NCBI GenBank assembly: GCA_951406725.2
Contig: OX597836.1
Coordinates: 38,316,001 to 38,380,000, forward strand
Direction of reading: 5' to 3'
From: Octopus vulgaris
Taxonomy: Eukaryota
DNA: 64,000 nucleotides
Position numbers and translations under genes: made by a program. The notes beneath the pieces were generated by a model. That model saw nothing but the letters and a program-made list of their open reading frames with translations, was not told the origin of the DNA and searched no databases. Below are positions 31,557 to 34,500 of this stretch, piece after piece; the stretch's first letter is position 1, and every line of letters begins with the position of its first letter.

Positions 31557-34500
31557 TCATGGGGGCTTTCTAGCAACTGCTATTTGGTGCATGAGAGAGT
31601 TCGATGCAGCTGCCCTCATCTGCCCCTCCTGCCGTGAAGTTGGTTCATCTGGGACACCAGACAGGAAGAGATCCAGCTTCATTTTAAAGACATCTGTATC
31701 CACCCCATGCAGGTCTCTCAGGTTCTTCGGGAGGATATTGAAGAGCTGTGGGCCTCGGAAGCCCAGGCTATCACAGAATCTTGTCCTACATCTTGATGGC
31801 AGGTTTGGAGTCCTAGGCACCACGCAGTGGCGCCCAGTTCTGGCATTTGTGTAACTCTCGATGCCAAAGTTCAGGACACTTCCCTCCAGGATCTTCCAGA
31901 TGTATATTATGGCATATCTTTCCCGCCTACGCTCCAGGGAGTATAATTTTAATCTCTTGAGTCTTTCCCAGTAGCTTACATTCTGCATAGAGGCTATCTT
32001 CTTTGTGTAGCTTCGTTGGATCGCCTCAAGTTCTGTGATCAACTTGACACTGGATGGTGACCATAGCTGAGAGCAATAGTCAAAGTGGCTTAGGACAAGT
32101 GTCTTCCAGAGGACCATCATGGTTTCTTGTTCTCTTGTTCTAAAGGTTCTAAGAATCCAGCCAGCCAGCCGTCTACATTTCACTGTCAGTTTAGCAACAT
32201 GTACATGAAAGGTCGCGTCATCACTCATGTGAATACCCAGGTCACGCACTGATTGTGCCTCTGGGATTGCAATCCCTCCGGGTCCAGTGTATTCATTGGG
32301 TATTGCATTCAGTTTTGCATGCTGATAGTATAAAGCTTGAAACTTTCCAGCATTGAACTGCATGCTATTCTTTTCAGCCCACTTGTATATTTCGTCCAGC
32401 TCACATTGCAGGTTTTTAGTGTCCTCAGGGTTCTGTATTGCCTGTGAAACTTTTGTATCATCTGCATAACTTGTGATCGTGGATCTCTGCGTGGCTGAGG
32501 GCATGTCTGAGAGGGCCATTATGAACAGTAGTGGTCCCAAAACAGTGCCCTGTGGAACACCACTCATTATTTGCGTGTTAATGGAAGTGGCCCCATTGGC
32601 CACCACCACCTGACTTCTATTCTTCAGAAAGTCGTGAAGCCATTCTCCTAGTTTTCCAACTATGCCAAGATCACGCAGCCCGTGACACACCATTCCGTGA
32701 TCGACTCTATCGAAGGCCTTTGCGAAGTCGAGATATATGACTTCCACATTTGAGTGGTTGAGCAGTTGTTTCAGCACCCAGTCATAGTGCTGCAGGAGCT
32801 GAGTTAAGCAGCTTCTTCCTGGTCGGAAACCATGTTGGGTGTCAGGCAGCAAGTCATTTTCTTCAAGGAAGGTGATTAGTTTCCTTCTGACTATTCGTTC
32901 CATGACCTTGCTGATGTGTGAGGTCAGAGAGATAGGTCTGTAGTTCTTTGCCTCCGCTCTGCTACCTCCTTTATGAATAGGGCATATTTTACCTTCCTTC
33001 AGTCCCCTTGGAAGTTTGCCAGCTGCAAGGAAGCTCTGAAAGAGGGACTGCAGTGGTCTTGCTAAGACTCTCTTACATACTTTTAGGAGGATTGCCGGGA
33101 ATCCATCGGGGCCAGTAGCTGAGTCTATTTTCATTTCATCTATAGCCTTTATTACATCGTCTTCCTTTATCTCGATGTAACTTATCGTCGCCGCCTCTGA
33201 TTCTATATCTGCAGTGGTAAAGAAGTCAGTTGGATTGCTGATTTGGAAATGCCCAAGGGGTGGAGTGAAAACACTCTTGAATTGTTCATTCAGTATTTCA
33301 CTTACCCTCATTGGTTTTCCTGTGAGTGTGCCATCCTTTTCAAGGAGTGGCCCTATCCTACAGTGCACTGTAGCCGTTTCTTTGGCATACCTGTAGAAAG
33401 CTCTGGGGTTAGTTTTTATGTTGTCTATAGCCCAGGCTTCTTTGTCTGCTCTTTCCTTCTCATGGGAAAGTTGCAGACAATTTTCAATTTCCAACAGTTT
33501 TATTTTCAGGCGGGACTTTTCACTACTTTCAATTTGTTTGTTTAGGCGATTTGAAATTTTTGTACGCCGTCTCATTAAAATTTTCCTCTCTCTGGGGATT
33601 TTGTTCTTGTGTACAGTGGCCTTTCTCTCTGGGACACATTTGTAGCATATGGCTTGCATTACAGACATGAATTGTTGAAGTATCATGTCGATGTCCGGCG
33701 AGGAGAGACATTCAGGCCAGTTTTGTTTGAGGATCTCTTTCTCAATTTGTTTCCAGTTTGCCTTATTGAAGTTCAAGCTGGAAAGATTCTGAGGGTTTCT
33801 TGTAGGCTGCATGTCCGTGCTCTCTTTTGGCCCGTACATGGTCAGCTCTACCATGTTGTGATCCGAGAGTAGTGTCGGTGTCACTTTCACATTATGGATG
33901 AGATCCATATTATTTGTGAAGCAGAGATCCAGTGTGTTACCTGCTCTGGTTGGTTGCAGTATTACTTGCTCCATGTACAGGGTGTTGGTGAGGTTCAGGA
34001 GGGACCTCGCCTGTCCACGTTCACATCTTGTCATTCCTGGGAGAGAAAGGCCCTCGGGCCATCTGACATTCGGTAGATTGAAGTCTCCCATGAGAAGTAC
34101 ACTTATGTGTTGTTCTAATGTGGTTAGAACTTCTTCTATTTTTAAAAGGCAGTCCTCGAACTTGCCCATATGACTTGGGGCATCTGGAGGGCGATATGTA
34201 GCACACACAACTACATCAAGTTGCCTTATGTGTACAATTAGTGTGTCACACACCGAGTTTGAGTATGACAAAAGGACCTGGGGTGTGAGGTCCCCACGGA
34301 TGTACATAGCAACTCCTCCATGACTCCTTTCTTTCCTGTCGGTCCGTAGTACAACATACTGTGGTATGTGTAATTCCGCATCTGCTATGTCCGGTTTCAG
34401 ATGCGTTTCTGTGAGTGCTATGCATAAGGCTTGATTGCATGCGACAAAGTCTCTCAGGAACGGGACTTTTGTCCTGTTACTGTGTGTTAGTAAACCTCTG

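What the first reader, a model, noticed from the sequence alone, without database searches (positions are those of the whole stretch)
32601..32707. Cluster of sense-strand A-to-G changes in LINE copy A1: possible ADAR editing written into the genome by retrotransposition
Seen: by manual comparison A1 and A2 differ by only 11 substitutions over about 3.3 kb, yet 7 fall within 107 bp. Six are C in A1 versus T in A2 on the + strand (32601, 32604, 32681, 32688, 32690, 32707), which is G versus A on the element's sense strand. Two more of the same type lie at 33831 and 34071. They change DKVDHGMICHR to [11 protein letters not shown]. Families B and D read DKVDHG(V/M)ICHK, so the A2 state looks ancestral. 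Two sites are in the UAG context that ADAR favours. Known: inosine is copied as G by reverse transcriptase, and coleoid cephalopods edit RNA very extensively. Inference: A1 derives from a locally hyper-edited transcript and still has an open ORF2. Against: the change at 32678 has the opposite polarity, site 32690 has a disfavoured 5' G, and two sites could be CpG decay in A2.
Basis: partly seen in the sequence, partly recalled or inferred. Interest (0 to 1): 0.8.

Follow-up and report, generated by a model that had tools for sequence, protein, structure and literature searches.

The report
RNA-editing scars in genomic LINE copies
One young jumping-gene copy differs from about 180 near-identical sisters almost only by eight A-to-G changes on its coding strand, and seven other copies in this genome show similar one-stranded bursts, which likely record an RNA-editing enzyme (ADAR) altering the RNA before it was copied back into inherited DNA.

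Summary
Observation confirmed and sharper than reported. LINE copy A1 differs from its nearest sister (L008, 2,861 nt) by exactly the six A-to-G changes. Against the family it carries eight, all A-to-G, including two new ones (34814, 34829). The four-G haplotype is unique in the 2.8-Gb assembly.

Across 374 young copies of three LINE groups (914 kb after filtering), rare sense-strand A>G is 1.86 times T>C per base (P=3e-5), while G>A equals C>T. All 8 clusters of three or more same-type changes are sense A>G (0.46 expected). Elements lie on both contig strands, and a 5' G is depleted (P=0.006), as ADAR requires. The genome encodes an ADAR2-like deaminase.

Best reading (0.72): ADAR edited patches of LINE RNA before reverse transcription. 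Not shown: no raw reads confirm A1's bases, the assembly has long-read-type noise, no duplex partner was found, and RNA data were uninformative. Known for retroviruses and for APOBEC; I found no paper showing it for LINE insertions.

The parts
31472..35095 (-). LINE copy A1: 5'-truncated non-LTR retrotransposon with a short tetranucleotide-repeat 3' tail, sitting between TA-rich microsatellites
31557..34676 (-). ORF2, open for 1039 codons stop to stop (first Met about 34601): APE-type endonuclease plus reverse transcriptase, YADD present
34505..34972 (-). 3' remnant of the upstream ORF (ORF1-like; Cys/His motif read by eye as CCCH-type, not scanned)
32681..32707 (-). A>G patch 1: 32707 (K657R), 32690 + 32688 (I663V), 32681 (R666G); 4 of 16 nearby A changed; haplotype unique in the genome
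32601..32604 (-). A>G patch 2: two UAG-context sites, both synonymous; 32604 private, 32601 also G in 5 copies of A2's sub-lineage
34814..34829 (-). A>G patch 3 (new): two private changes upstream of ORF2, outside the stretch shared with A2
45552..48871 (-). LINE copy A2: unedited at the six sites; carries its own lineage alleles at the positions matching 32678, 33831, 34071, 34113, 34596 and a 1-nt deletion
37936..40203 (-). LINE copy B (about 70% identical to A), member of a second young family used as a replicate

Best explanation
A1 carries three patches of sense-strand A-to-G changes that were likely made by ADAR deaminating adenosines in double-stranded patches of the LINE's RNA, which the element's reverse transcriptase would then have copied as G into a heritable new insertion. 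Shown here: the changes are private, purely A>G, clustered, tied to the element's sense strand, recur in other young copies of three LINE groups and avoid a 5' G; an ADAR2-like deaminase is encoded in the genome. Inferred: (1) the RNA was partly double-stranded, probably through pairing with antisense RNA from the thousands of related copies rather than its own fold; (2) inosine paired with C during target-primed reverse transcription (established chemistry); (3) this happened in the germ line or early embryo, since the copy is in the assembly. About 2% of sampled copies (8 of 374) carry a patch of three or more, with roughly a quarter of local A changed. The patches are mostly missense and look like a mutational side effect or mild restriction, not programmed recoding.
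For: A1: 8 of 8 non-polymorphic differences from the column majority are A>G; L008 differs by only the six. Pooled 374 copies, 913,764 filtered bases, 1,020 rare events: A>G 166 vs T>C 57, ratio 1.86, P=3e-5; counting each cluster once 1.48, P=0.017; G>A 197 vs C>T 196, ratio 1.05. Clusters of 3 or more: A>G 8 (A1, L101, L146, L172; L261, L419, L365, L470), the other 11 types 0; permutation mean 0.46. Seven of 8 have no other substitution type within 50 nt. Four sit on contig + and four on contig -. The L172, L146 and L088 haplotypes each match exactly once genome-wide. L194, picked only for two G, has 6 more private A>G within 52 nt and no indel. 5' G: 3 of 39 vs 9.7 expected, P=0.006, with no depletion in the T>C control (14 vs 14.1); without A1, Fisher P=0.0014. 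5' G depletion is the shared ADAR motif (PMC5625713, passages). ADAR2-like domain: E=2e-102 to human ADAR2.
Against: No raw read confirms the bases: best share of A1 words in any run is 0.50, and run X1 shows 100% T at the four patch-1 sites (76% of the run read; contigs only). The assembly is noisy: A1 itself lacks two bases that nearly all long copies have (34938-40, 35089), and substitutions near private indels include as many A>G as G>A (22 and 22). Strand asymmetry of the large clusters alone is modest: P=0.015-0.047 for 8 of 8 under a strand-blind patch model, 0.026-0.069 without A1. In subfamily A'' the rate excess is not significant (1.47, P=0.15) and two 2-site T>C clusters occur. No duplex found: changed A are no more paired than other A (0.31 vs 0.34). 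The 3' neighbour leans to G (P=0.07), whereas PMC5625713 reports A for invertebrate hyper-editing. The three RNA-guess runs show no T>C excess over X1 at 1% share. A1 alone has no significant motif.
Confidence: 0.72

Rival explanations
1. Assembly or sequencing artefact: long-read consensus errors or polishing with mis-mapped reads created the G bases.
For: Some copies are clearly noisy (L104, L159: dozens of indels with mixed G>A and A>G). A1 has two private 1-nt deletions near its 5' end. Scattered alleles of abundant sister subfamilies appear inside young copies (50 such events dropped). No run holds the A1 haplotype.
Against: Noise here comes with indels and as many G>A as A>G, but the clusters are pure A>G in indel-free stretches; A1's main patch is 2.2 kb from its deletions. 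Mis-mapped reads would import alleles found elsewhere, yet four tested haplotypes match exactly only once. The pattern follows element sense, not contig strand (4 and 4). A private insertion would be absent from other individuals' runs anyway.
Confidence: 0.11
2. Bursts of polymerase error during second-strand synthesis of the new insertion (dG placed opposite template T, for example under low dATP) give sense-specific A>G without any deaminase.
For: It predicts sense-strand specificity and purity, and needs no RNA duplex, which was not found. The weak 3'-G lean could reflect template slippage (inference).
Against: It does not predict 5'-G depletion; slippage would favour GA sites (inference). 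No matching C>T, G>A or T>C wobble-error clusters of 3 or more were seen. I know no precedent for LINEs (recalled).
Confidence: 0.09
3. Strand-blind DNA-level clustered mutation after insertion, such as polymerase-eta patches at WA sites or a DNA adenine deaminase.
For: Changed A mostly follow T or A (28 of 39). The cluster-level strand test is only borderline without A1.
Against: No T>C cluster of 3 or more, and a per-base rate excess on sense only. Clusters are pure A>G, whereas pol eta also makes A>T and A>C (recalled). 8 of 39 sites follow C.
Confidence: 0.04
4. Gene conversion or template switching from a diverged subfamily donated the G alleles.
For: Mosaic copies are common in this family. 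Several apparent A>G pairs did turn out to be sister-subfamily alleles and were removed. 32601-G exists in 5 other copies.
Against: No donor within 3 mismatches for A1, L172 or L146. A donor tract would bring mixed substitution types. Sister subfamilies carry A at the patch-1 sites.
Confidence: 0.04

Closest known systems
ADAR-type A-to-G hypermutation of retroviruses (Rous-associated virus, avian leukosis virus, HTLV-2; PMC12925331, passages read)
   Same: Clustered A-to-G on the RNA strand, carried through reverse transcription into DNA.
   Different: There: exogenous retroviruses, up to about 50% of A changed, in the LTR or an inverted repeat. Here: endogenous non-LTR elements in an assembled animal genome, short patches with about 25% of A changed and no inverted repeat found.
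APOBEC 'DNA editing' footprints in LTR retrotransposons (PMC4866542, passages read)
   Same: Strand-biased, motif-bearing, same-type clusters fixed in young retroelement copies, detected against sister copies with the complementary change as control.
   Different: That is G-to-A from C-to-U on cDNA, in vertebrate LTR elements, and was at noise level in 19 invertebrate genomes. This is A-to-G in LINEs.
ADAR hyper-editing of repeat-derived RNA across animals (PMC5625713, passages read)
   Same: Clusters of A-to-G in repeats with strong 5'-G depletion.
   Different: Seen there in RNA reads only, not as inherited DNA change; the invertebrate 3' preference is A there and weakly G here.
ADAR1 and ADAR2 restriction of human L1 (PMC5224506, PMC8677026; passages read)
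   Same: ADAR acts on the LINE ribonucleoprotein.
   Different: Both papers sequenced part of the ectopic L1 RNA and found no editing. Here the genomic copies bear an editing-like mark.

Membership tests
ADAR A-to-I editing footprint | Changes are A-to-G on the RNA (sense) strand, not T-to-C | tested here: met
   166 vs 57, ratio 1.86, P=3e-5; 8 vs 0 clusters of 3 or more. Not significant in subfamily A'' alone.
ADAR A-to-I editing footprint | Same-type changes cluster locally | tested here: met
   8 clusters vs 0.46 by permutation; 0 of 400,000 for A1
ADAR A-to-I editing footprint | G depleted at the 5' neighbour | tested here: met
   3 of 39 vs 9.7, P=0.006; T>C control flat; local-background Fisher P=5e-4
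ADAR A-to-I editing footprint | 3' neighbour preference (G in mammals and reptiles, A in invertebrate hyper-editing per PMC5625713) | tested here: inconclusive
   G 14 vs 9.5 expected, P=0.07; A 13 vs 12.7
ADAR A-to-I editing footprint | Substrate is double-stranded RNA | tested here: inconclusive
   No stable local hairpin or long inverted repeat within the element; pairing with antisense RNA or flanking sequence of the source copy could not be tested
ADAR A-to-I editing footprint | The same sites are edited in RNA and not in matched DNA | tested here: inconclusive
   Only assembled contigs from unmatched samples. X3 (RNA by guess) has 0.5-3% non-T depth at 32681, 32688, 32707 against 0 in X1, but the letter is not given.
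ADAR A-to-I editing footprint | Host encodes an ADAR deaminase | tested here: met
   PF02137 matches at four loci; the C6 locus is ADAR2-like. Germ-line expression not tested.
ADAR A-to-I editing footprint | Loss of the mark without ADAR | not testable with these tools
   Needs an experiment
APOBEC DNA editing of retroelements | Sense-strand G-to-A clusters | tested here: not met
   G>A equals C>T (197 vs 196); no G>A cluster of 3 or more
Non-LTR retrotransposon (LINE) with APE endonuclease | ORF2 with APE and RT domains, 5'-truncated copies, simple-repeat 3' tail | tested here: met
Non-LTR retrotransposon (LINE) with APE endonuclease | Clade assignment by RT phylogeny (CR1/L2-like is a recalled impression) | not tested
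   No tree built; the Atlas gave only generic EN-RT clusters

The most novel reading that the evidence does not exclude
ADAR is a routine germ-line mutagen of active LINEs in this animal: a few percent of new insertions inherit edited patches, some single edits spread with source lineages (32601-G in five copies), and young LINE copies form a DNA archive of germ-line A-to-I editing that can be read in any good assembly.
Probability: 0.55. Interest if true: 0.82.

Novelty: new variant of a known kind. Interest (0 to 1): 0.7.

Why it matters
[quoted passage not shown] If these patches are real, they are direct genomic evidence that A-to-I edits pass from RNA into heritable DNA through LINE retrotransposition in an invertebrate-like genome. 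They make the question testable by sequence alone: rate per insertion, motif, hot regions and effect on ORF2. They also give a read-out of germ-line editing and warn that clustered edits inflate age estimates of single copies.

Tried and rejected
1. Whole-window self-BLAST timed out; a targeted BLAST replaced it.
2. The first, looser count (18 A>G clusters vs 1 T>C in 171 copies) was inflated by sister-subfamily alleles (32567, 32553, 32621, 32415, 32416, 32064, 31977, 32877, 32880) and by noisy copies. It was replaced by the strict filter. That filter also dropped L088 and L030's 32090/32091, because copies selected for those G were counted as sisters, which is conservative.
3. Rows dropped before counts: family A 10 of 181 copies, B 2 of 111, A'' 23 of 117 (low identity, chimeric or short); positions within 60 nt of a private indel or 15 nt of an alignment end; the selecting 37-mer; 50 + 84 sister-allele events. 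No sister filter was applied to B.
4. Local folding and an inverted-repeat search gave no structure at the patches.
5. Sequencing runs: 24 listed, all contigs, none above 0.50 of 12 words; 4 laid on 32000-33700; 40 of 128 difference rows shown; inconclusive.
6. Family E in the window is older (94-95% to its relatives); its 30 loci were not analysed.
7. Lineage-level variants show no A>G excess (10 A>G vs 8 T>C among 40 variants with 4 or more carriers), so there is no evidence that editing drives subfamily divergence.
8. A DNA-transposon control was not run: at one cluster per 114 kb, 30 short copies would have no power.
9. Ten literature searches found no paper reporting ADAR-type clusters in genomic LINE copies. 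The library lacks most subscription journals, and no supplements were read.

Full report
What the element is. Window 31472-35095 (minus strand) is a non-LTR retrotransposon copy, A1. Its ORF2 is open for 1039 codons and has endonuclease and reverse-transcriptase domains. It lies between TA-rich microsatellites and ends in a short tetranucleotide repeat. It is 5'-truncated: of 32 copies that reach its 5' end, 30 run on in the same sequence. The window is in a 2.8-Gb assembly of 227 contigs.

The observation. A1 and A2 differ by 11 substitutions and one indel, with seven in 32601-32707, as stated. I aligned 180 other copies, which are nearly all of the 179 exact matches to the two common 37-mers plus a few others. 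Against the column majority A1 differs at nine positions: one common polymorphism and eight A>G, at 34829, 34814, 32707, 32690, 32688, 32681, 32604 and 32601. The nearest copy, L008, differs over 2,861 nt by exactly the six. Positions 32678, 33831, 34071, 34113 and 34596 are alleles of A2's lineage. Most copies were selected by an exact match over 32676-32712, so the independent uniqueness test is the genome pattern search: two places within 3 mismatches of A1's 37-mer (A1 and L032, which shares one G) against 553 for the unedited form. Chance placement gave 6 of 8 within 107 nt in 0 of 400,000 trials. The edits give K657R, I663V and R666G plus two synonymous changes. Other window LINEs carry R at the first site, so it is probably tolerated.

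Is A1 alone? A first count gave 18 A>G clusters against 1 T>C. Inspection showed two contaminants: alleles of abundant sister subfamilies scattered into young copies, and copies full of indels. I then removed low-identity copies, positions near private indels and sister alleles, and added two replicates: family B (109 of 111 fetched, of 288 exact matches) and sister subfamily A'' (94 of 117 fetched, of 1,105). Pooled over 374 copies, 913,764 bases and 1,020 rare events, A>G is 166 and T>C 57 (per-base ratio 1.86, P=3e-5; 1.48, P=0.017 with each cluster counted once), while G>A is 197 and C>T 196. By group the ratios are 2.0 (P=0.015), 2.15 (P=0.002) and 1.47 (P=0.15). Clusters of three or more same-type changes, neighbours at most 50 nt apart, number eight, all A>G: A1, L101, L146, L172 and L261, L419, L365, L470. 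Permutation expects 0.46 in total. Seven of the eight have no other substitution type within 50 nt, and four lie on each contig strand. With two-site clusters included the counts are A>G 17, T>C 3, G>A 5 and C>T 6. The six-G haplotypes of L172 and L146 have no relative within 3 mismatches, and L088's four-G haplotype matches exactly once. L194, retrieved only for two G, has six more private A>G within 52 nt. L190 has four A>G at 32615-32693, and L470's patch maps to about 32520-32625 by my offset arithmetic, so A1's region may be a hot zone.

Motif. In the large clusters a 5' G is rare: 3 of 39 against 9.7 expected (P=0.006), with no depletion in T>C read on the other strand. Against local background the rates are U 10/18, A 18/47, C 10/48, G 3/41, and the effect holds without A1 (P=0.0014). 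PMC5625713 (passages) gives 5'-G depletion as the ADAR feature shared by all animals tested. It reports a 3' A preference in invertebrates, whereas here 3' G leans high without significance (P=0.07). The genome has four loci matching the deaminase family, one of them ADAR2-like at E=2e-102.

What was not found. The patches do not sit in stable hairpins, the element has no long inverted repeat, and changed A are no more paired than others. A partner strand must therefore be inferred, most simply antisense RNA from related copies. Public runs did not help. None of 24 listed holds more than half of 12 sampled words. Run X1 shows only T at the four patch-1 sites in the 76% read. X3, RNA by guess, has 0.5-3% non-T depth at three of them with the letter not given. 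All were contigs from unmatched samples. A1's bases are thus unconfirmed by reads. A1 also lacks two bases present in nearly all long copies, 110 nt or more from the nearest edit, so the assembly is not error-free there. Noise near indels, however, is mixed (G>A 22, A>G 22, C>T 14, A>T 14), unlike the pure patches. The cluster-level strand test is modest: P=0.015-0.047, or 0.026-0.069 without A1.

Mechanism. The most likely path is: a source LINE is transcribed; part of its RNA becomes double-stranded; ADAR converts about a quarter of local A to inosine in one to three patches; target-primed reverse transcription reads I as G; second-strand synthesis fixes the change in a germ-line or early-embryo insertion. 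The pattern in DNA is shown. The duplex, the enzyme and the cell type are inferred. Confidence is 0.72. Rivals are assembly artefact (0.11), second-strand polymerase error (0.09), strand-blind DNA mutation (0.04) and gene conversion (0.04).

Comparison. ADAR-type hypermutation carried through reverse transcription is known for avian retroviruses and HTLV-2 (PMC12925331, passages). Fixed deaminase footprints in genomic retroelements are known for APOBEC, as G-to-A in vertebrate LTR elements, at noise level in invertebrates (PMC4866542, passages; PMC2873906, passages). Two studies found human L1 RNA bound but not edited by ADAR1 or ADAR2 (PMC5224506, PMC8677026, passages). A 2016 review calls the role of ADAR editing in Alu evolution and mutational suppression undetermined (PMC4982230, passage). 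PMC9115989 and PMC5974252 (passages) added nothing on this point. Ten searches found no report of ADAR-type clusters in genomic LINE copies; the library is incomplete and no supplements were read. Two unchecked notes from this scan describe similar L1 copies in other genomes. They are leads only, and they suggest the effect is not special to one lineage.

Verdict. The feature is real in the assembly and belongs to a family-wide, replicated pattern. It is best read as ADAR editing written into DNA by LINE retrotransposition: a new variant of a known kind, interest 0.70, pending confirmation from raw reads.

Noticed in passing
L194 (G000:C23, about 49.287 Mb); A1-equivalent positions 32090-32190: Densest patch seen: 11 sense A>G in 101 nt with no indel; 8 remain after removing three shared with an older relative.
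   Followed up: partly
L126, L152, L130, L117, L118, L032: A recombinant group: 5' part like sister subfamily A'', 3' part like family A, switching near A1 position 32790.
   Followed up: partly
L146, L180, L038, L006, L157 and others: Isolated alleles of abundant sister subfamilies scattered in young copies; either short gene conversion or short-read polishing errors.
   Followed up: partly
window 31472-59571: At least seven LINE copies of several families in 28 kb, most flanked by TA-rich microsatellites up to 2.8 kb long, suggesting targeting of TA repeats.
   Followed up: no
window 7452-7907, 9275-9757, 22497-23207 (+): Exon-like frames with a motif recalled as von Willebrand A domain; copies A1, A2, B, D and E lie antisense to them, a possible source of antisense LINE RNA if the gene spans them.
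   Followed up: no
window 39475-39476: Copy B has an adjacent sense G>A pair shared with only one other sampled copy (L237).
   Followed up: no
L288:1-300: The 5' region of long family-B copies is a tandem array of CT-rich units.
   Followed up: no
G000:C6 132.22 Mb, C5 47.62 Mb, C1 137.35 Mb, C30 5.58 Mb: Four loci match the adenosine-deaminase family PF02137; only the C6 locus was checked (ADAR2-like).
   Followed up: partly
G000:C4 138.733/138.736 Mb, C27 23.037/23.043 Mb, C19 34.512/34.517 Mb: Near-identical family-A copies lie in opposite orientation a few kb apart; read-through transcripts could form long duplexes.
   Followed up: no
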